Of a DNA stretch of 64,000 nt, positions 13,373 through 56,603 are shown piece after piece. Positions within the stretch are counted from its first letter, which is position 1. Each line of letters begins with the position of its first letter. Origin of the DNA: Eledone cirrhosa (taxonomy: Eukaryota); contig OZ024749.1 of NCBI GenBank assembly GCA_964016885.1, positions 22,258,001-22,322,000 of the forward strand. Reading direction: 5' to 3'. A program made the position numbers and the translations under genes. A model generated the notes under the pieces. It was not told where the DNA came from. It was given only the letters and a program-made list of their open reading frames with translations, and ran no database searches.

Positions 13373-13408
13373 CATATAAGAACAAAAGATTGTCAAAAGA
13401 GCTCCATG

Positions 13409-13479
13409 CATTCTACTATGCGCATTTCAAAAACAAACATCATCATGCAACAATATCTGTGCTTTCATCAGATAAAACA
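13409..13479 (-). ncRNA. Type-I hammerhead in a 130-bp insert between two (TA)n tracts
   Basis: tgttttat-CTGATGA-long GU-rich stem II-GAA ATGCGCAT A-gtagaatg. Confidence 0.7.
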
Positions 13480-13499
13480 TGAAGACACGATATGAAGGT

Positions 13500-38153: not shown

Positions 38154-38220
38154 CAAGGTTAGCAAATAAGGAAAATGTTTCAAAATAAATTTTTAAAAAT
38201 TAACTTTACTTACTATGGTT

Positions 38221-38304
38221 ACCTTTACCGAATCGGTTTCGAATCTCAAAAATAAACGGAGACCATACGGCCTTCGTCGCAAAGAAAGATTCTCGTCAGA
38301 AGGT
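38221..38304 (-). ncRNA. Type-I hammerhead with ~40-nt loop II (pLTR family X, 38150-38713)
   Basis: acctt-CTGACGA-GAATCT..AGATTC-GAA ACCG att CGGT A-aaggt; the pLTR end is repeated at 38633-38713. Confidence 0.88.
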
Positions 38305-38711
38305 TCTTTTCATTCGAAGAATATAAAATTCTTGAATTTAAATTACGAACTAGCGCTACCCAAAACTGTTCCCGAGATGAGAGTAAATGAAGTGGAATCA
38401 ATTTTTTCAAGGGCCGAAAGTAAAGATAGAGGCAGAGGGAAGTAGGTCAATCGGCTACCACTATCACTGGCAGCAGTCAGAACGACCAACATTTTTCTCA
38501 ACATAGAGGAGTATAGTAATAATAGGATATGTGTTCCTACACGCACAAGGCGCTAAGGGACACATGTATTGTCCAACCATATGGCAATGTGGTTCAATGG
38601 CAGGTTAATAAATTAACGAGCCAGAACATATATAATCAAGGTTTAGCAAATAAGGAAAACGTTTCAAAATAAAATTTTAAAAATTAACTTTACTTACTAT
38701 GGTTACCTTTA

Positions 38712-41700
38712 CCTTCTTCAGATGGGTTAAGGATGAGGAGTGAAACCGTACACCGGATCTCCCTGCAACAAGTCTTAACACCCCGGCGGGCAGGCGCTGC
38801 AAAATAACACCCAGGAAACAATCCTTGCATACCAGACCCAGCATCAGACAAACAGATGCGACAAAAAAAAAAAAAAAAAACCACCTGCCAGAGTTACCTC
38901 CCTTGACCTGCTGCAAAATCAAAACAAACTATTTTTGCGAGCAATGAACCTTGATGTGGATTTAACCCCCAAAACTCTTTCCGAGCAATATAAGGAACAC
39001 TTTTGATTATTTATGCCCTTGAGAAGCCCAACTGGGCGAAACGTACGTAGGTGCTGTTTTAAATAAACATGTTTTAACGGTCTATTCTCCGATTTTTTAC
39101 TTTCCCACGTGCTTACGCTCTGCTAACTCTCTAGCCCACTAAATATTAACACTTCGAATATTTAATACTGCCGGCCTAGTATCGAGCGCCTAGTATCGAG
39201 CACCTTTGGCATACGCTACTTGGCAAATAACTATATGTATCACCTATGCTCCCCTTTTTTCTCTTTCTCGATACGTAAATACTGTATTACCGTGCTCCTT
39301 TTGTAGAGCATCTCACCTTATTTGCCATTATGTTGGAGAACCAGCCGTTACCCATGTCTGTCAAGTGTATCCCCTTACCCAGCAGAAAAACCTACCTTAA
39401 ACTGCTTATAGACGCTACTAATTCGTTTATACGGAGAGTCAGATGGAAGGCCTACCACCTGAATAAGAACACCCGTAACCTTCCTGAACCCAAAGAGAGG
39501 TATGGCTTCAAAACATACCGAAACCCACCGCACAACACCTTACTGGACTCCTTTGAAGAGGACCTGCTGAAAATGATCAAAAACGTTAAGTTCAGAAAGA
39601 AACACCAATGCAGCAATCCATTCTTAACGTCCCTTGATACACTAATAACTAAGATCAAGAATGACCCGCACCTCTTCGTCACCTCCGACAAACCAAAAAG
39701 CTGTACAAGATGGACGCGAGAAAGTATAAAAAATTCATCTATAAGGAACTACACAAAGACTACAAAAAGACACCCTCTAGTACCCTAAATGACATAAATA
39801 GAGTAGGGAAGGATATAGTCACCAGCTTAGAAATAGAAAAGTACACTAACCCGTACGTCCCTCTGACGCCTAAGTTCTCTCTTAAGGATCACAAATATGA
39901 CTTTAATGAAAGCCCCTCTATTAGACTAATATGCCCCTCAACATCAGATATAGGTAAGATTAGTAAAGTGATCCTCGACAGAGTACTACTGGAGCTTAAT
40001 AGAAAGGCTAAGGTCTGCCTCTGGGGCAACACCGACCAGGTCATAAATTGGTTCACCGAGTTGCCGGATAAAGCCACCTTGAAATTCATCCAGTTTGATA
40101 TAGATAGTTACTACGCCTCTATCTCCCCCATACTCTTAAATAAGGCACTTATCTTAGCTAGATCTAACACTAGCCTCACTAAAAAAGAAATAGACATAAT
40201 TCTAGCGGCGCGTAGAACCATTATCCAGTTCGAAGGCTCCCACTGGACCAGAACCAACCGTCCTGATAACTTCGATGACACGATGGGGTCCAGTGACTCA
40301 GCGCAAGTAACTCACCTGGTCGGGATATACCTCCTACATAAGCTTAGGGAAGAGATACAGACCCTACAAGGCGGTGTATATAGGGATGACGCCCTGTTTA
40401 CCGTTAGGAACCATAGTCCCCGTAGGATAGAGAACCTTAACAAACATATACACAGGTTCTTCAAGTCATACGGCCTATTCGTAACTATGGACCTCAACCA
40501 CAGGGTTGTCAACTTCCTGGACGTGACACTGGAGTTGAGTACAGGCTTATACAAGCCATACCATAAGCCTGGAGAGTGCCTCTCTTATATTAATTATGCC
40601 TCAAACCACCCTAAGCAGACTCTCAACTCTATAGTCTATAGTATCTCACATAGAATCTCGAGGCTATCCGCCAATGAGGATATCTTCAACCAAGCGACAG
40701 ATTACTACAATAGGGCCTTGATAAGCGCCGGATTTAACCGAGGAATTTCCTACAGCCCTAACGCTAGCTCTAGAAACCATCCCCTCATAAAACAAACGTT
40801 ATAGAAAGCCATACCTATAACCGATCACGCGGCGACCTCGTTGAAGTCGGATATAATAGAATAGATAACCGCACTAAAGATCACGACCCCGGCGACGGTG
40901 AACACTGTAGATTACTCGAACTATTCCCCTATTACAAAACCAACAAAGGCAACGGCCTACTACCAACGCCTTCAAACCAACATGTTCGTGTACATAAACA
41001 TGGAAGAGGTAAGAAGAGTGCACCCGAGCATAAAGTGAAAGGGGCACCGAACGGGCGACTGCGCATTAACACACATAAGAGCGGTCACCTAGATGGAACC
41101 ACCCGTAGCAAAAGTACAAGGACACGGAATCACCACCGTAACGTCCTATGGTCCCCCCCTACTCTCGGAGTGTGGCCTCCAACATACCCCGGATGTTCTT
41201 CGAAGCCTTAGAGAAGAACTTCCCGCCCAACCATAGGTATAGAAAAATTCTTAATAGGAATAATATAAAAATATCCTTCTCTACTACTCCTAACCTAGCA
41301 GACATCATAGGAACAACGAACCACAGTAAGATGACCAAGACACAGCACCTCGACACAGACGCACCTACACCTGACAATAACTATATCGGCCTTAACAACT
41401 CCCTGGCAGCATCCAATAGTGTTGACAACGGCATCCGCAGACGCAACCAGCATAACCGTGAAATGACTGGGGAACATGCAGGACATGACGTGCGGAATAA
41501 CAATCGCAGCACCCCGCGTGCTGTGGGTTGTAATTGTGCTAACGACCGCTGCGGTAGCGTAGGTAACAACGCAGGCAGCAACAATGATAGCCTTACCGTG
41601 GGAAATAGACGGAACCGCGACAGAAATTGCAACTGCCGCGACAGAGGACGCTGCCCCCTTAGAGGATACTGCTTGACTGATAGGGTTATATATAGATGCA

Positions 41701-42938: not shown

Positions 42939-45900
42939 TCTGTTTGTTCATCGACCTGCGACGGCAATTGCGTGCGTTTGTTAAATGGTAAAGTCGTGGC
43001 GTGGACTCGTCGCAGGTCGAATGATTTATCGGAGGGATTATAAAACGCAGAGTTCCAGGCTGCTGCTTTATGTGTACTATTGCTATTGTTATTGTTAGTT
43101 GTGTTGTTTCTATTTCTATTTCCACCAACAGCCTCATGGTTGTTTCTATGTCTCTCATAATTACTCCTGTCTCTTTCCACTGGCTCATTGTTGTTATCTA
43201 CCCTATTTTGTGTGTCTGTGTGTTCGTCTTGGTTATTCTCTTTGTCCTTAGTCTCCCTTCTCCTTTTAATCCTATTAATTTCCCTTATTTCTGTGATTTC
43301 TGTGCTACTGTCATTACTTGTTTTCTGTGCCTGTGTGTTTGTTAAGATTGTGGTGGTGGTGAGAGACATTGAATGCGTGTGTGTTGGTGTTGTTGATGTG
43401 TGCTGTTGTTGATGTGTGTTGTTGTTGTCTCCGTGTGTGTTATTGTTGTTGTGTGTGTTTTTATTGTTGTTTGTGTCTGCGTGTCTGTTGTTGTTGTTTC
43501 TGGGTATGTTGTTATTGTTGTTGTTGTTGATGTGTGTGTTGTTATTGTTGTTTGTGTCTGTGTGTCTGTTGTTGTTGGGATGTGTGTTGTATATGTGTGC
43601 GTATATTGTTGCTTTTGTTTTTGTTTTTGTTTTTGAGGCTCCAGCGTAGTTTTGTAAATGATTTTTCTATTTCTGACAGACAACTAATCATATTTACCTT
43701 CTTGAATGTCGCAAATTTCGGGGGTAAACATAACACAGACATCTCATCGTTATCTATTCTTGCGTTACCATATATATTTGTGTTGTTGTTGTTGTTGAAC
43801 TCTTCTGTTAATGAGGTGTCGGTCATATTTATACCGTCAATTTTGTCGGGATATCTATTGGTATTCTCTATAGTATCCTGATTTAGCTTTATCTGCTTAA
43901 GCCACTTAAGTTTCTTGTTAAAGTGCTTATCACTTTCTTGAGTAATGTACTGTTCTTCAGGGCGTATAAGGCTTATAAATATTAGTTTCTCTCTTGGTGT
44001 GGTGATCCTAGCTATTCCTTGTATTAAAAATAGCACTAGTACACATAAAGCAACAGCCTGGAACTCTGCGTTTTATAATCCCTCCGATAAATCATTCGAC
44101 CTGCGACGCGTCCACGCCACGACTTTACCATTTAACAAACGCACGCAATTGCCGTCGCAGGTCGATGAACAAACAGAAGCACAATTTAGTATAGCTAGAT
44201 CCGAACTTAGAAATATTATAGAATAGTATAGCACGAAGCATAATAGAATGGAGGCCCAGCAACTGGGAGAAAAATCTGCAAATGGCTTGCGTAAGCTCAT
44301 GCAGCGCTCACGTAATGGAGAGATAGCATGCTTTCCAACAGACAAGTCTGGCAGAATGTCGGTTGACAGCCTGCCAAACTACATCCAGGCAATGCAACCC
44401 CATATCACTAACACAACAGAGGTAACACCACAGGAGCATGAGGATAGAGAAAAAGCCCTCAATGCCCATATGGTGATGTGGACGAATATAATGCAGCCCA
44501 ACAAAAGGACTGCCAACAACTTCCAGGCCTGGAACAATGACGTGCCGGCGTCGTATGGGCTTCGAAAAGACCATAAAACGGTCTGTGACCCTGTCGCGGG
44601 ACCACCAACACGGCCAGTCTATGGAGCTAACATTGCTAGTAACTACTGACTGTCCTACTTCGTCTCCCTGATCATACGTCCCATCATTGAAATGTCCCCA
44701 GATGTATGTGACAGCACGGAGGACCTCCTCAGCAGAATCGGCGTGAGTAACCGATCTGGGGACCTAACAAACTGCATAATAGGCAGTATGGATGTTGTGT
44801 CCCTGTATCCATCTATTGACGTGGATTTTGCTGTGGAGAAATGCGGAGAAATGATCAGTGAGAGCAAGGTTGAGTTCCGTGGGATTGATACCAGTGAGCT
44901 GGGACTCCTACTTAAGCTTACCTATAGTAATAGTTACCTAGACACATATGACATTAGCAACCTGTGCCCTACAAGACCAGCAAGAGGCAGACCGCCTACC
45001 ATTACCTCAATGGCCAAGAAAACCCACACAGATAGATGGAACGGGTGGACCAGAGCCATACGAACACCCGAAAACCACGATGAACTGAAGAAAATGATTG
45101 CACATGCGGTAGGGGCCAGCATAAAACTAAACCTTAAGGAACATATGTTCAAATTTAATGGAAAAACATATGCCCAAGAGGAAGGAGCAGCCATTGGTGT
45201 TAGCATTGCAAGCGACATAGCTAACTTATTCATGGTATGGTGGGACAGTAGACTTAAACTTAAACTTAAAGAACAATTAGAAGACCCCTTAACCCTGATA
45301 ATGTACTCCCGCTACGTTGTTCATATAAACATCGTAGTTAAGACACCCCCACTAGAGAACAGTCAGGAACTAGAGAAAAACACAATGGAAAGCATCCAGC
45401 AAATAGCAAACTCCATCCACCAGAGCATTAGAGTTACTATAGAATACCCAAGTAAACACCCCAACCATCGATTACCTGTACTAGACACAGAGCTCTGGTT
45501 AGATACCATTAACAACAAAAAAACAAATCCTCCATTCCCATTATGCCAAACCCATGACTTCCAAACATCTGATCCACCGAAACTCGGCCATTTCGGACCA
45601 TACCAAAATCAACATACTGATTACGGATTTGGTACGGGTGATGAGAAATGTGTCCCGCATGTGACACCCCGAAGAACTAGAGAGACACATACAACACTTC
45701 ATCCACAGTATGCAGTTCTCTGGCTACAATCAGAGAGATAAAATCAGAGTGTATAGAGGAGCCAGAACCAAATGGGAAAAAATGGTAAATAATGAAATAA
45801 ATGGGACCTGCCCCTTGTATAGGAGCAAATTTTGTAATAGAATAGAAAGAACTAGGAACAAGGCCAATAGAATAAACTCATGGTATGATAGCAATAAATA

Positions 45901-46851
45901 CCAGTGTGTGATGTTCATCGATACAACCCCTAGAGGTGAATTAGCTTACAAATTTAGAAGGGCCCTAAATAAACATGAACTCAATATTAAGATAGTAGAA
46001 AGAACAGGTAGCTCCGTAAAAACACTTATTACCAAGACATACCCTTTTCAAAGACCCTCATGTATAGATAAGAAATGTATAACCTGTAAAATAAGCCCCC
46101 ATATTAACTGTAAAACTAGAAATGTAGTGTATAGCATAAGCTGCACTGAAGGACAATATAGAGACAAAAAGATAGTGTACATAGGTGAGACAGCTCGTAG
46201 TGTAGGGGAACGGATAAATGAACACTGGCGAGACCTTCAAGATAATAAAGAATCATCTGTACTCTACCAACATGCTAAGATAGAACACAACATGCTAAGA
46301 TAGAACACAAGGGTAAATTAGAGAACATAGAAATAAAAATAGAATCTACACACAGAAAAGACGCAATGTTTAGACAAATTACTGAGGCAATAAACATAAA
46401 AGAATTACAACCAAAATTAAATAGAAAATATGAGTGGAACAGCAACATGACAACTTACAATTAAGGACAAAATTAAAACACACACACACATAGAACAAAC
46501 AACCAACCAGTAACATGTAAATAAACAAATAAATAAATGAACATAAACACACACAGACACCCGGATGTGGCGCATGCGCAGACTGAGCACACAACACACA
46601 CACAGAAACAAAATGGCGTAGGATAGAACAAAGGAGAGGCACAGAAACAAAGAAAGGAATCCCCAGTCACTGAAGAGGTCACAGAGTGTGTGACGAAAGA
46701 ACTATGACTATATATAAACAATTATCTGGTTGTGAAACCAACCAACCAGAAATTTATAAATTTATAAATTTATAAATATATAATAAATTGAAGTGAAAGC
46801 AACTGGTGCGTGTGTTTCTTATTGGCAACATGACCCTCTCAAAGTATAACA

Positions 46852-47168: not shown

Positions 47169-49840
47169 AAGTTAAATAAAAGTCAAATGATTAAAATTTA
47201 GCTTCGTTTATTACTGCTATATATATTTCAGTGACAGCCATCTTTGGCTGTGACCTCTTCAGGCAGTTTGAATTAGTATGGTATAGACAAGTACATATGT
47301 TGTTTAGGTGTATGATATTGTCAATACTCTGATATGCCCAGTTCCTTGTTGGGTTGTTAATTCACTGGGGAACTGGATACACTCAGGCGTGATGCTAACT
47401 ACCCCAGGACGGACAACCCCAACCGCAGGACACGTGGGGGGGGGGGGGGGGGGGAGGAAACGGGCGACCACCCCACGATGGATCTCCCGGGGCAGACAAC
47501 AACCACCCCACAAATCCGGGCCGTGAAGATAACAGAAAGTATAGAGCCCAAAAGGGAAGCAACAGTGCGGAAACCACCAGCAAACCAACAAATCTCCAAC
47601 AAATCACGAAGCCCCCAACCCACACATATAGGAGGAGACACCGACAAATCACGTGGTACAACCCACCCTACTCAGCGGCCCTAAAGAAAAGCTTGGCCCG
47701 ATTGTTCTTTGGAGCACTTGACAAATGCTTCCCGAGGGACCACAGATACCACAGGATCTTCAACAGACACACTGTGAAGCTTTCGTATTCCACCACGAGA
47801 AATTTGGCCCAACACATAGCTAGCATCAACAGAAGTAGGCTTAAAAACCACACACAACCAGAAGATGGCAATACAAACACTCAGCAGAACCATGTGAAAG
47901 GAGGGAAGGGGGGACCCAGAGCCCACCCAAGAAACACAAACAGACCCAAGGACCCCCCACCGAGCATGGGGGAAGACCAACATGTAACACATAATGAGAA
48001 TCCTAATCTAAGCACGCAGAGGCCGCCCACCCTCTGCAACTGTAGAAACCCCGAATCATGCCCCCTTGCTAATGAATGTCTCAAGAAGAACATAGTGTAC
48101 GGTTGTAGGGTTAAAACCCCCAACTCCGAACACCTCTACATAGGAGCCACATCAACGAGCTTTAAGGACCGCTGGTACAACCATCGCCATTCATTCAAGA
48201 AGGAGGCCAAAAGGAAAAGCACAGCTCTCTCCGACCTGATCTGGAAGCTTAAGCTGGACAGGACCCCATACTCTCTGGCCTGGTACATAATCAGGAAAGT
48301 ACCACCCGATAAAAGGGGATCTTGCATATGCAAACTATGCCTGAACGAGACCCTTGAGATACTAAGAGTTGGAAGCGGCCTGATAAACCTCAGAACCGAC
48401 TTCTTCGGGACATGCAGACACCTTAGAGCCGGGACCTTTCTCAAAATATATGGACAGTAGCAACACAAGAAGATGTGAACTCCCCTCAAGCTATAGGGAC
48501 TTCTACAGAACATGAAAACACCTCTCGGCCAGACCTCCCTCAAGCTATATGGACAATTACAACACCCTAGGTTGTGAACTCCCCTCAAGCCATAGGGAAC
48601 AACCCAGGCGGAGCAGACACCATGATAGCCTAGAGACAGAATCGGACACAGCCATAATAATCTGGCCAACATCTATAACACAAACACTTTTAATTTACCA
48701 GATTTCTGACTTTAAAGTTCCAATCTTAAATCTTGATTTCTCTATATTAATTTGTTATTTGTTTTCTGCCCTCTTCACTGTATAACCTTATATTTATATT
48801 TATTTTAAGTTGAGATAGATTATAACACAAACACATTGAATATCTCATCTTAACATCTTGTATCATACCAATCTATCCAACATATTCTGACCTTGAGATT
48901 GGTTATAGCACACACACACACACACTTTATCCTACATTATTTCTCACTTCTCCATATACATTATCATTACTTTTTCACCAATCTCTCATTTACTCTTTAT
49001 TCTTTATTCTCTATTTATTTATTTATTTTCAAATTACACAAATTATATTAATTATTTTATTTTATTATATTATTTATTTATCTTCTGTTTTCTTCATTTA
49101 TTGCCTTATATTTCTTCATATACATGAAATAACCCCCCCCCCCGCCACCACCACTACGGTGGTGGCGGGTGGGATGAAGAGAAAACACAAACTGAATACT
49201 TCTAAATTGTTAGCAGCAGCTGACCACTACAACAACAACAGTACCAAAATAATGGTGGAAGTCAAATGTACTGAACAATAGCAGGCATAAACACTACAGG
49301 GAGCCTCACCCCAGAAAGAATTCTATAGACTTCTGACTGAGGAATGCTCTCAGAACTGAACAATGGGAAGTTTGACACATTTTTTGATATTTTGTTCCTT
49401 CAACACATTGTCCCTTCTACCATTTTATCAATTTTTAAGCTAACTCCAACAATGACAACACTAATAACTGACCAATGAGAGGAGAAGGGGACCTGTGACA
49501 CTAAAATTCGTTTGTTTGAATTCATATGACTCCAGTTCCCCAGTGAATTAACAACCCAACAAGGAACTGGGCATATCAGAGTATTGACAATATCATACAC
49601 CTAAACAACATATGTACTTGTCTATACCATACTAATTCAAACTGCCTGAAGAGGTCACAGCCAAAGATGGCTGTCACTGAAATATATATAGCAGTAATAA
49701 ACGAAGCTAAATTTTAATCATTTGACTTTTATTTAACTTTATTTTACACTACTCCGGAGTAACCAAACCAACCTGCGCACTTCGTCGAGTGCTCCAGCCT
49801 GCATACTGAGGTGTTGGTATACAACCAACATAAACTCAAT
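47162..49840 (+). mobile_element. 5'-truncated PLE family Z with inverted 5' pLTR
   Basis: 47162-47379 is inverted to 49528-49746; hammerheads at 47213-47267 (-) and 49641-49695 (+); about 1.3-kb 3'UTR. Confidence 0.9.
47693..48460 (+). pseudogene. GIY-YIG endonuclease domain of PLE family Z
   Basis: IFNRHTVKLSYS, CNCR..CPL..C..NIVY..YIG..FKDRWYNH..STALS..IW..CKLCLNE..LIN..CRH. Confidence 0.9.
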
Positions 49841-50685: not shown

Positions 50686-52078
<1,393 letters not shown>

Positions 52079-52116
52079 GTGTATATATATATATATATAT
52101 ATTTGTGTGTACACAT

Positions 52117-52149
<33 letters not shown>

Positions 52150-52150
<1 letters not shown>

Positions 52151-52968
52151 AGGTTTACATATACATAAAGTTATAGATATATATATGTTGCAACCGGTCA
52201 CTTTTAAGCTCTATGAAGAATTAATAAATTAAATAATCAGACCAATATATTATAAATCATGTCCTTAGAATTATTAGATAAAATATATACTATTTCCTCT
52301 TCTAATTAGCATAATTAAACATAAAAAATCAATTAGACCAAGCCATAAGAAGAAAGGCTCTTATGAAGAAATCTCCGACAAATAATCGAAAGTGGCCTCT
52401 TCGCGGTGGCCCCAGTAGATTATTTATCCAACATTTCGACAGCATGTAGAAACCGACTAAATATATCATCAACCATACACAATTAGGTGTAAAATTAAAC
52501 TTAGAAGAAATGTGTACATACCGTAATTATATCTCTACCATGGTTTCATCCGTATTTTTAGACATCCAAATAATAGGAATGTCTTGAGTTAGGATTCATC
52601 AGGAGACAAACTCAAAATCAGACATCTAGTTTTCTCATCCGATCGCGCCAAATTTAGATTCAAAAATGGCTAAGGATCGGTATGTGGCTGTGGTCAAGCT
52701 AGAAAGGATGTGATTGGTTGCTTACGGCAGGTAGGCTTGCTGCTAGAAAGCGCAGCCAAATATCGCCAAATTGAATCTCAACCTAACGGGAGATTATTAA
52801 ATATAAATGTTTACATATACATAAAGTTATAGATATATATATATGTTGCAACCGGTCACTTTTAAGCTCTATGAAGAATTAAAAAATTAAATAATCAGAG
52901 CAATATATTATAAATCATGTCCTTAGAATTATTAGATAAAATATATACTATTTCCTCTTCTAATTATA
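52150..52968 (-). repeat. Retrozyme-like element R3 (656-bp unit, 1.25 units) with hammerhead at 52530-52608
   Basis: 52155-52308 repeats at 52811-52966; tgtctc-CTGATGA-ATCC..GGAT-GAA ACCATGGT A-gagata. Confidence 0.82.
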
Positions 52969-52982
52969 ATATTTATATATAT

Positions 52983-53017
<35 letters not shown>

Positions 53018-53066
53018 AATATATATATATTTATGTGTATATATATATATATATGTATATATATAT

Positions 53067-56000
53067 ACTCTTTTACTCTTTTACTCTTTTACCTGTTTCA
53101 GCCATCCGGCTGAGGCCATGCTGGGGCACCGCCCTTGTTGCTACACATTTTATCTTCAGCTTGTATAGGTTGGCCACTGGTGTAAGAGCGAGTTTGTTGC
53201 TGCTGCCCTTAGGTTTCGCTCGTGTCTTGCTGTCGGCTCATCCGGGATCCTGGATAACAAGGTGTCGAGATGTTTCTTGAAGACATCCACCTCCACGTCA
53301 TGCAAGTCTCTCAGATCCCTCGGCAGCCTGTTGAAGAGTTGAGGGCCCTTGAATCCCAGGCTATTGCAATAGCTGGTCCTTATTCTAGATGAGATGTGGA
53401 AGACGGGACCTTTGGCACCACCCAGTGACGTCCTGTTCGACGGTTGGTCCAGCTCCCAATGCCAAAGTTTGGTGCTAGTCCCTCCAGGATTTTCCACATG
53501 TAGTTCACTGCGTATCTCTCTAGTCTTCGCTCCAAGGAGTAGAGGTTCAGTTCCTTTAGCCTCTCCCAGTAGCTTGTCTCCCTCATCTTGGCAATCCTCT
53601 TGGTGTAGCTTCGCTGGATTGCCTCAATCTCCGTGGTTAGTTTGACACTATGGGGTGACCACAACTGGGAGCAGCAGTCCAGCCGGCTTACGACAAATGT
53701 CCTCCATAGTGTCAACATGGTGTCTCGATCTCTTGTCCGGAAAGTCCTCAAGATCCAGCCAGCGAGTCGTCTGCACATTGTCGCCACTTTCATGATGTGT
53801 GAAGAAAAAGATGCATCATCGCTCATGTCTATGCCCAGGTCTCGTATCGATTTTGACACGGGGAAATCAGTCCCTCCTGGTCCTGTGTAGTTGTGTTCCA
53901 CTATATTTGTGTTTGTAGGTTTGTTTGGAGGTTTGTATTGTAGGGCTTGGAATTTGCCAGCATTAAACTGCATGTTGTTTTCTTCCACCCATTTGTATGG
54001 CATCCAGATCCTGCTGTAAAAGGGCAGCGTCAGCCGGGTTTTTGATTGCCTGTGCTACCTTAGTGTCATCAGCATAGCTAGTGAGGGATGTTGTTGTATG
54101 TACTACAGAGGGCATGTCTGAGAGAGCCACCAAAAAACAGTAGTGGTCCCAGGACTGTCCCCTGGGGCACCCCACTTGTTATTGGTGTTTCCTTTGAGAG
54201 GGCCCCATTTCCTGCGACTGCCTGGCTTCTGTCCCTTAGGAAGCCATGCAGCCATTCCGCTACTTTTCCAGTTATGCCGAGTCCGTGTAGTTTGTGACAT
54301 ATCATTCCGTGGTCGACCTTGTCTAAAGGCCCTCGCAAAGTCAAGATATATCACGTCCACATGTGAGCTGTCTAGTAGTTGTATCAGTACCCAGTCGTAG
54401 TGATGTAGCAGCTGTGTAAGGCAGCTTCTTCCTGGGCGGAAGCCATGTTGCGTGCTAGTCAGGCGGTCATTTTCCTCGAGGAAAGTGATCAGTTTCTTTC
54501 TGATGACTCGCTCCATGACCTTACTGATATGCGACGTCAGGGAGACTGGCCTATAGTTTTTGGCCTCCGCTCTGCTACCTTATGGATAGGGCATATTGTG
54601 CCTTCTTTCAGCTCCCTGGGTAGTACCCCGCTAGCCAAGGAGCTTCTGAAGAGCATCTTCAGTGGAGTTGCTAAGGCCCGCTTACATATTTTTAAGAGAA
54701 TTGCTGGGAATCCATCAGGTCCAGCAGCCGAGTCTTTTCTAATTTCATCAATGGCGTACACCACATCCTCCTCCCATATGTCTATGTGGTTGATGGTTGC
54801 CATTTCTTCATGTAGTGTTGTGGCATCAAAGAACTCCTCTGGCTTCGTTATTTGCATGTGCCTCAGTGGACATGTGAAGACACTTTTGTACTGTTCGTTC
54901 AGTATTTCACATATCTCTTGGGGGTTTTCGGTTAATGAACCGTCCGTATGGAAGAGTGGCCCAATCTTGCAGTGTACTGAGGCAGTTTCTTTTGCAAATT
55001 TAAAGAAGGCCTTAGGGTTTGTTTTAATGTTTTCTATGGCCCTGTTCTCTTTCTTTGCCCTCTCATTCTCATGGGAAAGTTTGAGTGCAATCTCGGTGTC
55101 AAGTAGTGCACGTTTCAAATAGGATTCCTTCTTGTTTTTGTTTTGTTGACTATTCAACTGGTTTGAGAGTTTAGTTCTATGTCTCATAAGGATTTTCCTA
55201 TCTCTGAGAATAAGTTTTTTGTGTCTGTTTGCCTCTTTCTCCGGGACAAACCTTTTGCATATAATGTGTATTGTTGTCATGAAGTGTTGAAATTGTGTGT
55301 TAGTGTCTGGTGTGGCGGTGTTTTCACTCCATGTTTGCTTCCGGATTTCTCTCTTAATCTTTTTCCAGTTAGCCTTGTAGAAGTTAAGGCTGGATAGCGT
55401 CCCGGAGCTTCTTGTTGGTTTTGTCTCTCTTGGTTTCTTGGACCACATATCATTAGCTCTACTAAGTTATGATCCGAGAGAATTGTTGGTGTCACCCTTA
55501 CATTGTGGATGAGCACTTCGTTGTTTGTAAAACAGAGGTCCAGGACATTTTCGCCTCTTGTTGGGAGGAGTATTGCTTGCTCCATGAACAGCCTGTGTGT
55601 GAGGGCCAGCAGGGATTCCGTCTGTCTCTGTTCTATTGACGTCATTCCAGGGAGGAAGTGGCCCTCAGGCCATTTCACCTTTGGTAGGTTGAAGTCTCCC
55701 AGCAGTAGGATGTTGAGACCCTGGTCCAGTTTATCAAGGACCTCTTCTATCCTACTTAAACTATCCTCAAATTTACCCTCATGACTGGGGGCATCGGGAG
55801 GCCGATATGTGACACATATTACTGTCTGTAGTTGCTTCATATGTATTATCAGTGTGTCACAGACTGAGTTTGAATGTGTCAACAGTACAATTGGTGTGAC
55901 ATCTTCACGGATATACAGAGCAAACCTACCATGAGTTCTCTCCTTCCTGTCCGAACGAAATACAGTATATTTCGGTATATGTATTTCTGCATCTGCTATA

Positions 56001-56603
56001 CTGCTTGTCAGGTGCGTTTCGGTTAGTGCCATGCATAGTGCTTGATTGCTTATGGCTAAGTCTCCCAGGTAGGAAATTTTACTCATGTTACTGAGTTTCA
56101 CCAGGCCTCTGACATTCAGCAGCAGCACTGGTGTGACTTTTGGGGTGCCAGTAATGGCTGTCGGTATGACACCTGGTCTGGTGTCAGCGGCGGCCACTCT
56201 GGGTCCCTTAACTGTGGTGGTCTCGAGTGCTGGTGTGGATGACCCTGGCTCTGGAGACGATGCAGCCAGGTCAGCTGTCCCACAATCTTCTCTGCCATGA
56301 CTCAAACATTTTTCTGATCTGCTGCTGCCATCTGTATCTCGTCGGCATGTGCGTGCCTTCTCCTTGTTGGTGCGGCACGCGCGACATCAGCATACTTCTG
56401 GAGCGGCTTATTTCGGCTTTGGCTGGGGCATGTTGCGCGAGTATGATGGGCACAGTTCGTTTGAGACCTAGGGTGGGCGAATCTGCATCCCATCCCTATC
56501 TCTCCATGCCAGCATATCCCGTTCTTGAAAAACTTGCACATTACTTGGGTATTTTTACTCCCAGTGTCTCGGTGCTTTCTGTTCTTTCTTTGAACAGTTG
56601 TCC
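53067..56603 (-). mobile_element. CR1-group LINE (CCCH-finger ORF1 end, APE endonuclease plus RT ORF2), frameshifted
   Basis: LLNVRGL, LTETHL, YRPP, GDFN, SDH; QHGF, VPQG, YADD, SLERR; ORF1 CKFFKNGICWHG..CRFAHP; 3' tail (GTAAAAGA)n; 5' end lost in the gap. Confidence 0.93.

What the first reader, a model, noticed from the sequence alone, without database searches (positions are those of the whole stretch)
52150..52968. Retrozyme candidate R3: 656-nt unit with terminal redundancy
ORF-less, flanked by (TA)n, with ~155-bp direct repeats at the ends that do not contain the ribozyme. The canonical hammerhead (6-bp stem I, ACCATGGT stem III, GUA) lies mid-element. That permutation is what copying 1.25 turns of a circular RNA would give.
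Basis: partly seen in the sequence, partly recalled or inferred. Interest (0 to 1): 0.75.

Follow-up and report, generated by a model that had tools for sequence, protein, structure and literature searches.

The report
Hammerhead retrozyme with ribozyme cut-site scars
This is one copy of an abundant, protein-free jumping repeat of a known kind (animal retrozymes) that carries a predicted self-cutting RNA motif; the ends of its sister copies indicate that a Penelope-type enzyme likely copied one RNA from two fixed start points, sometimes falling off exactly where the RNA would cut itself and usually reading on, probably round a circle.

Summary
Observation confirmed. A minus-strand, ORF-free 656-nt unit plus a ~165-nt terminal repeat sits in (TA)n, with one type I hammerhead mid-element. 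It belongs to a dispersed family (617 hammerhead-motif matches; subfamilies 70-96% alike; stem II covaries). Copies are not random circular permutations: 244 of 290 arms end 3' at one of two fixed TA-rich sites 105 nt apart, and 5' ends vary. Back-to-back insertions pair one arm from each site (60 of 60 classifiable pairs). This is the Penelope 'tail' and two-start-site signature, so the terminal repeat reflects where copying started and stopped. No coding element is attached. Key evidence: 15 copies stop exactly at the predicted cleavage bond, against 1-2 at two control positions. Their long partner arms stop there too (6 of 6), so both arms likely copied one cut RNA. Most copies read through the site (887 exact matches), and repeated passes were equally alike at insertion. 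That fits a re-ligated circle but does not exclude uncut tandem RNA. No RNA data were available and no autonomous partner was found. Earlier scan notes report the same two-armed pattern for other families in this genome. New member of a known kind.

The parts
52145..52968 (-). Whole insertion: a single arm of about 1.25 units, 5' end near 52966-52968, 3' end at family site B merging into (TA)n
   Evidence: L001 row
52798..52966 (-). First (5') pass of the terminal redundancy, unit positions q3-171
   Evidence: 96.4% to the second pass
52142..52308 (-). Second (3') pass of the terminal redundancy
52530..52608 (-). Type I hammerhead: stem I 52603-52608/52530-52535, CUGAUGA 52596-52602, stem II with internal loop and distal helix, GAAA 52544-52547, palindromic stem III 52537-52544, GUA; predicted cut between 52536 and 52535
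   Evidence: motif scan; covariation; family 5' ends pile up at this bond
52145..52156 (-). Site B: fixed family 3' end (inferred RT start site), used by this copy
   Evidence: 99 of 290 arms end here
52245..52258 (-). Site A: the other fixed family 3' end (inferred RT start site); internal in this copy
   Evidence: 145 of 290 arms end here
52157..52244 (-). Interior of the 105-nt Penelope-type 'tail' between sites A and B
   Evidence: present on exactly one arm in 60 of 60 classifiable inverted pairs
51976..52144 (.). (TA)n target on the 3' side, at the end of a neighbouring Penelope-like fragment
52969..53068 (.). (TA)n on the 5' side; no target-site duplication can be resolved

Best explanation
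It is a non-coding, hammerhead-bearing mobile repeat (a non-LTR retrozyme) that is likely copied in trans by a Penelope-like reverse transcriptase/endonuclease from an RNA that is predicted to self-cleave and probably re-ligates into a ~656-nt circle. Steps: (1) A multi-unit source is transcribed (inferred). (2) The hammerhead cuts after GUA/GUC (inferred from covariation and from 5' ends at that bond). (3) Most cut monomers are ligated to circles, by analogy RtcB (inferred, least certain). (4) The enzyme nicks (TA)n, and both target strands prime on the same RNA, one at site A and one at site B, helped by UA-rich pairing (fixed ends and A+B pairing shown; enzyme inferred). (5) Each cDNA runs a variable distance, across the cleavage junction if the RNA is continuous or off its end if it is cut, and the arms are joined with short overlaps or filler (shown in sequence). 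The window copy is a lone site-B arm that ran about 1.25 units.
For: Family: 617 hammerhead matches, 883 matches of a 3'-proximal 32-mer, controls 0. Fixed 3' ends: 145 A + 99 B of 290 arms, 220 of these 244 followed by TA runs. Inverted pairs: 60 A+B, 0 A+A, 0 B+B, 27 of 87 unclassifiable because an arm is broken (one locus is counted twice and one of its calls is doubtful). This matches the PLE tail at one end and two internal RT start sites on both strands (PMC8557442; PMC11167929). Hammerhead covariation: 87.6% of cells paired, 8 of 21 pairs change on both sides, slid controls 31-48%; a 690-nt subfamily carries the permissive GUC triplet. Cleavage-site scars: 15 of 68 matches are 5' ends exactly at the first base after the cut, against 1-2 of 24 and 1 of 14 at two control positions, p about 2e-5. 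Ten of the 15 have an inverted partner: 6 stop 4-24 nt short of the same bond, 4 are too short to reach it, none reads through. Read-through dominates: 887 exact matches, 84 of 100 listed. Passes were equally alike at insertion: odd-one-out counts terminal 54, internal 67, partner 62 in 34 three-way comparisons, p 0.49; tandem passes differ 3.0%, opposite arms 2.7%. A PLE-like RT is abundant in the genome (28,158 first-look candidates).
Against: No RNA evidence of expression, cleavage or circles. No autonomous partner with a homologous terminal repeat was found. The family is star-like: only 54 private variants are shared between passes against 638 single ones, with no A>G over T>C excess (6 vs 6 in both classes), so the same-molecule test has little power for read-through copies. 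An uncut transcript of a young homogeneous tandem source would give the same equal divergences; multi-unit loci exist, and HHR cleavage was dispensable for an anole PLE in vitro. The motif alone does not fold as a hammerhead in silico. The tail is 105 nt, not the 30-40 nt described. Covariation counts are not corrected for phylogeny. Most sampled loci were chosen for carrying the ribozyme or a 32-mer, and most come from contigs C1-C2.
Confidence: 0.65

Rival explanations
1. Same non-autonomous Penelope-type element, but the usual template is an uncut linear head-to-tail transcript of tandem source loci. Cleavage happens in a minority of RNAs and only truncates them; circles are not needed.
For: Explains read-through, fixed 3' ends and A+B arms equally well. 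Uncleaved RNA was the dominant substrate of the anole PLE in vitro. The weak stem III implies poor monomeric cleavage. Multi-unit arrays exist, including one of about 46 units.
Against: Internal passes are not more diverged than the partner arm (67 vs 54 vs 62), so old diverged tandem sources are not the templates; the large array has units 4-6% apart. No second pile-up of 5' ends marking a transcription start was seen apart from TA-microhomology positions (small sample). The ribozyme is conserved with covariation across subfamilies.
Confidence: 0.27
2. The repeat is the terminal (pLTR) remnant of a longer coding Penelope-like element, and copies are 5'-truncated fragments of it.
For: The same end signatures and a hammerhead are typical of pLTRs; retrozymes are reported to derive from pLTRs.
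Against: Arms extend upstream into further head-to-tail units (84 of 244 are longer than one unit), not into an ORF. PLE protein hits in 1.2-kb upstream flanks of 290 arms are scattered, in either orientation, with no recurring junction. The unit has no DNA similarity to 12 loci of the PLE family in the window.
Confidence: 0.05
3. Copies spread at the DNA level (satellite amplification or recombination between TA runs), without reverse transcription.
For: One ~30-kb array shows higher-order duplications of near-identical units.
Against: Dispersed copies, polar 5' truncation, strict A+B inverted arms and 5' ends at the RNA cleavage bond are marks of an RNA template.
Confidence: 0.03

Closest known systems
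Metazoan non-LTR retrozymes (Cervera and de la Pena 2020, PMC7229834: passages and parts 2 and 4 of 6 read; Li, Clavereau and Pollet 2026, 10.64898/2026.07.22.740005: parts 1-3 of 5 read)
   Same: Non-coding, low-GC head-to-tail unit with one type I hammerhead per unit and a short palindromic stem III; no LTR; proposed PLE mobilisation from circles; monomers, dimers and multimers.
   Different: The unit is 648-690 nt, above the 170-400 nt invertebrate circles though inside the 51-972 bp range of the 2026 preprint. Stem II carries a 48-59-nt insert. Most copies are partial arms, and the window copy has only one ribozyme. Circular RNA is not shown here. The parts read do not describe fixed start sites, A+B arms or cleavage-site 5' ends.
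EN+ Penelope-like elements and their tail (Craig et al. 2021, PMC8557442, passages; Arkhipova et al. 2013, PMC3846280, passages; Frangieh et al. 2024, PMC11167929, parts 1-3 of 4; Cervera and de la Pena 2014, PMC4209133, passages)
   Same: 5' truncation, partial tandems, head-to-head inverted arm, tail at one end only, microsatellite targets with no readable TSD, hammerhead, two internal RT start sites.
   Different: No RT/GIY-YIG ORF. The tail is 105 nt rather than 30-40. The start sites are UA-rich and can pair with the target, whereas the anole start sites are AC-rich and not homologous to it. That study found no strand difference in start site and no reads ending at the hammerhead, while here arms pair strictly A+B and some copies end at the cut.
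Plant LTR retrozymes (as summarised)
   Same: Terminal direct repeats around a 600-1000-nt non-coding unit with a hammerhead.
   Different: There the type III hammerhead lies inside true LTRs with PBS, PPT and 4-bp TSDs. Here the type I ribozyme lies outside the repeat, and repeat length varies from copy to copy.

Membership tests
Non-LTR retrozyme | Type I hammerhead with conserved core in the repeat unit | tested here: met
   (Rfam did not detect it)
Non-LTR retrozyme | Non-coding unit | tested here: met
   longest stop-free stretch 65 aa; no recurring ORF upstream of 290 arms
Non-LTR retrozyme | Head-to-tail copies with two or more ribozymes | tested here: met
   met for the family (spacings 648-675; 684-690; array); not for the window copy, which has one; 3 of 98 arms in the least biased set span two sites
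Non-LTR retrozyme | Self-cleavage of the RNA | tested here: inconclusive
   indirect only: 15 5' ends at the predicted bond vs 1-2 at controls; no assay
Non-LTR retrozyme | Expressed as circular RNA | not testable with these tools
   no RNA data; circular fold z -1.1 to -6.3 in 8 monomers, 12 shuffles each is only suggestive
PLE-mobilised non-autonomous element | Two fixed 3' ends with the tail on one arm; 5' truncation; inverted and tandem arms | tested here: met
PLE-mobilised non-autonomous element | Autonomous PLE partner sharing terminal sequence | tested here: inconclusive
   PLE-like RT abundant, but no similarity to the one family compared; other families not surveyed
Autonomous PLE | RT plus GIY-YIG ORF between pLTRs | tested here: not met
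Plant LTR retrozyme | Type III hammerhead inside fixed LTRs | tested here: not met
   type I, outside the repeat; repeat length varies

The most novel reading that the evidence does not exclude
The family is a genomic record of the Penelope/retrozyme cycle. One enzyme complex primes both target strands on a single RNA at two obligatory, non-interchangeable sites. The hammerhead cuts that RNA in vivo, leaving copies whose two arms both end at the scissile bond, and most templates are re-ligated 656-nt circles copied by rolling-circle reverse transcription. The papers read propose this route but do not show it.
Probability: 0.5. Interest if true: 0.7.

Novelty: new member of a known kind. Interest (0 to 1): 0.5.

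Why it matters
The class is known and its PLE link is already proposed. What is open in the papers read is what the hammerhead does in Penelope-type elements (called unclear in PMC8557442; dispensable in vitro, with no reads ending at the site, in PMC11167929) and whether circles are the templates. Here the 5' ends at the cleavage bond, the co-termination of both arms there and the strict A+B rule give in vivo footprints of cleavage and of single-RNA, two-strand priming. They define a small substrate (one 656-nt RNA, two start sites, a TA target) for a direct test.

Tried and rejected
Rfam: no hammerhead hit. Sequencing runs: no RNA holder listed; the three runs laid were contigs of unrecorded kind from one sample and say nothing on expression. 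Nearest-neighbour versus intra-copy distance: biased by taking minima over short stretches; discarded. The first three-way count (89/90/65) and the directional-recurrence test (1042 vs 275) were distorted by gap placement at unit positions 649-650; the three-way count was redone with direct alignment, and the recurrence test was not redone and is not used. RNA-editing marks, a lead from earlier notes: no A>G/T>C asymmetry. Empty-site search to ask whether the TA runs pre-exist or are added by the RT: no clean empty site among 175 insertions. TSD of the window copy: not resolvable. Partner search: other short-stem CCATGG hammerheads (16 matches) are mostly unrelated and not tied to a homologous PLE. 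Pfam gave only a weak GIY-YIG hit for one of five window ORFs (E 0.024), so no PLE clade is assigned. A sequence look-up among earlier scan notes found nothing. Literature searches listed no paper describing this family or cleavage-site 5' ends in retrozyme copies; subscription papers and all supplements were unseen and may bear on that.

Full report
Observation. The element lies on the minus strand, 52968 to about 52145. Its ends repeat over 169 columns at 96.4% identity (52798-52966 and 52142-52308), offset 656-658 nt. A type I hammerhead starts at 52602: 6-bp stem I, CUGAUGA, a 4-bp proximal stem II with a 48-nt insert, GAAA, a palindromic stem III and GUA, with the predicted cut between 52536 and 52535. 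It lies outside the repeats. The longest stop-free stretch is 65 aa, and (TA)n flanks both sides. Rfam misses the motif, and the motif alone does not fold as a hammerhead at minimum energy. Unit positions below (q) count from 52968; q434 is the first base after the cut.

Family. The genome is 3.0 Gb; the unit gave 4,203 first-look candidates, and the best 40 are 94-100% identical. The ribozyme core has 386 strict and 617 relaxed exact matches, and a 3'-proximal 32-mer has 883; reversed controls gave 0. Subfamilies are 70-96% alike, with units of 648-690 nt. In 20 hand-picked diverse ribozymes, 87.6% of cells pair and 8 of 21 pairs change on both sides (4 of 5 in proximal stem II), against 31-48% paired in slid controls (relatedness not corrected). 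One subfamily has GUC in place of GUA. Eight monomers folded as circles scored z -1.1 to -6.3 against 12 shuffles each, which is weak support only.

Ends of copies. From loci L001-L060, L077-L166 and L179-L218 I obtained 290 de-duplicated arms. Of these, 145 end 3' at site A (q59-67), 99 at site B (q164-176) and 46 elsewhere (mostly broken by indels or later insertions). TA runs follow 220 of the 244 A/B arms, 5' ends spread over the unit, and 84 of 244 exceed one unit. In the least biased set (98 arms chosen by the 32-mer on contig C1), the median length is 236 nt, 64 are paired, 35 reach the ribozyme site, 30 pass it, 22 exceed one unit and 3 span two ribozymes. Of 87 head-to-head pairs, 60 are A+B, none A+A or B+B, and 27 have an unclassifiable arm (tails inspected, where one locus is counted twice with one doubtful call). 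Junctions show short overlaps or fillers. This is the Penelope pattern: 5' truncation, partial tandems, an inverted arm and a tail at one end only, explained by two internal RT start sites with both target strands extended. So the copies are not free circular permutations; the window copy is a lone site-B arm that ran 1.25 units.

No coding parent. PLE protein queries hit the 1.2-kb upstream flanks of the 290 arms only sporadically, in either orientation, with no recurring junction. A PLE-like RT from the window has 28,158 candidates in the genome, but 12 loci of that family share no DNA similarity with the unit and carry a different hammerhead. The partner is unidentified.

Cleavage footprints. 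A pattern ending at q434 and followed by a non-family base gave 68 matches. Read by eye, 15 are 5' ends exactly at q434 (one could be q432), and the rest read through, most of them the GUC subfamily. The same design gave 1-2 stops of 24 at q431 and 1 of 14 at q429; binomial p is about 2e-5. Exact read-through matches number 887, about 20 of them in one array. Ten of the 15 have an inverted partner: six end at q438-458, four are too short to get there, and none crosses the site. Two further pairs from other samples behave alike (434/440 and 434/443). In the background, 84 of 100 listed arms at q452 pass on beyond q396, so 6 of 6 stops has a chance of about 0.16^6, or 2e-5 (hand calculation). 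I infer that both arms copied the same RNA, and that in these cases it was linear with a ribozyme-made 5' end.

Circle or uncut multimer. Most arms cross the cleavage bond, so most templates were continuous there. If old tandem loci were the templates, the upstream pass should be the odd one out. It is not: 54 terminal, 67 internal and 62 partner differences in 34 three-way comparisons (p 0.49), with tandem passes 3.0% apart and opposite arms 2.7% (which corrects a gap artefact). This fits repeated copying of one circle, but also a young homogeneous tandem source. Private variants shared between passes are few (54 against 638 single) and show no A>G asymmetry. No RNA data could be tested. I put the PLE-mobilised retrozyme identity near 0.9, and the circle as main template near 0.65-0.7 of that.

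Comparison. The family meets the sequence criteria of metazoan non-LTR retrozymes; circular RNA and cleavage are untested. The parts read do not show cleavage-site 5' ends or the A+B rule, and the anole study found no reads ending at its hammerhead. Earlier notes of this scan describe the same two-armed pattern in other families of this and other genomes; I saw them after reaching this reading and do not count them as support. Verdict: new member of a known kind with informative mechanistic scars; interest 0.5.

Noticed in passing
window 50690-51975 (+): Broken Penelope-like fragment (C-terminal GIY-YIG-like ORF by recall of motifs) with its own minimal hammerhead at 51732 and a short inverted terminal arm at 50690-50760. 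The retrozyme sits in the TA run at its 3' end.
   Followed up: partly
window 44227-46850 (+), 5079 (+): Related PLE family with a frameshifted RT-EN ORF and a minimal hammerhead at 46670; its RT has 28,158 candidates genome-wide.
   Followed up: partly
window 47399-48460 (+); 24076, 49646 (+), 47262 (-): A second PLE-like family with a different hammerhead-like motif in three copies.
   Followed up: no
window 38170-38310 and 38650-38730 (-); 13400-13480 (-): Two further hammerhead-like motifs beside (TA)n. The one at 38299 has a downstream stretch repeated about 480 nt upstream and may be another retrozyme family.
   Followed up: no
L249-L252 (G000:C1 92.986-93.016 Mb): About 30-kb array of roughly 46 units with a site-A end and an inverted site-B arm; higher-order duplications show later satellite-like expansion.
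   Followed up: partly
L254, L255, L239-L241: 690-nt GUC-triplet subfamily, apparently young (adjacent units differ at 5 of 690) and often multi-unit.
   Followed up: partly
L260, L263: Arms that start at site A, jump internally at a short microhomology and still end exactly at the cleavage bond.
   Followed up: partly
window 52640-52725 and 52515-52527 (-): Conserved CCAAT-like, E2F-like and 5'-splice-donor-like motifs (labels from recall) flank the ribozyme; possibly an internal promoter.
   Followed up: no
L192 and L211: The same inverted junction (q103/q568) at two loci 76 Mb apart.
   Followed up: no
window 53090-56400 (-): Degenerate LINE-like element (endonuclease and RT-like frames, label from recall) right of the finding.
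   Followed up: no
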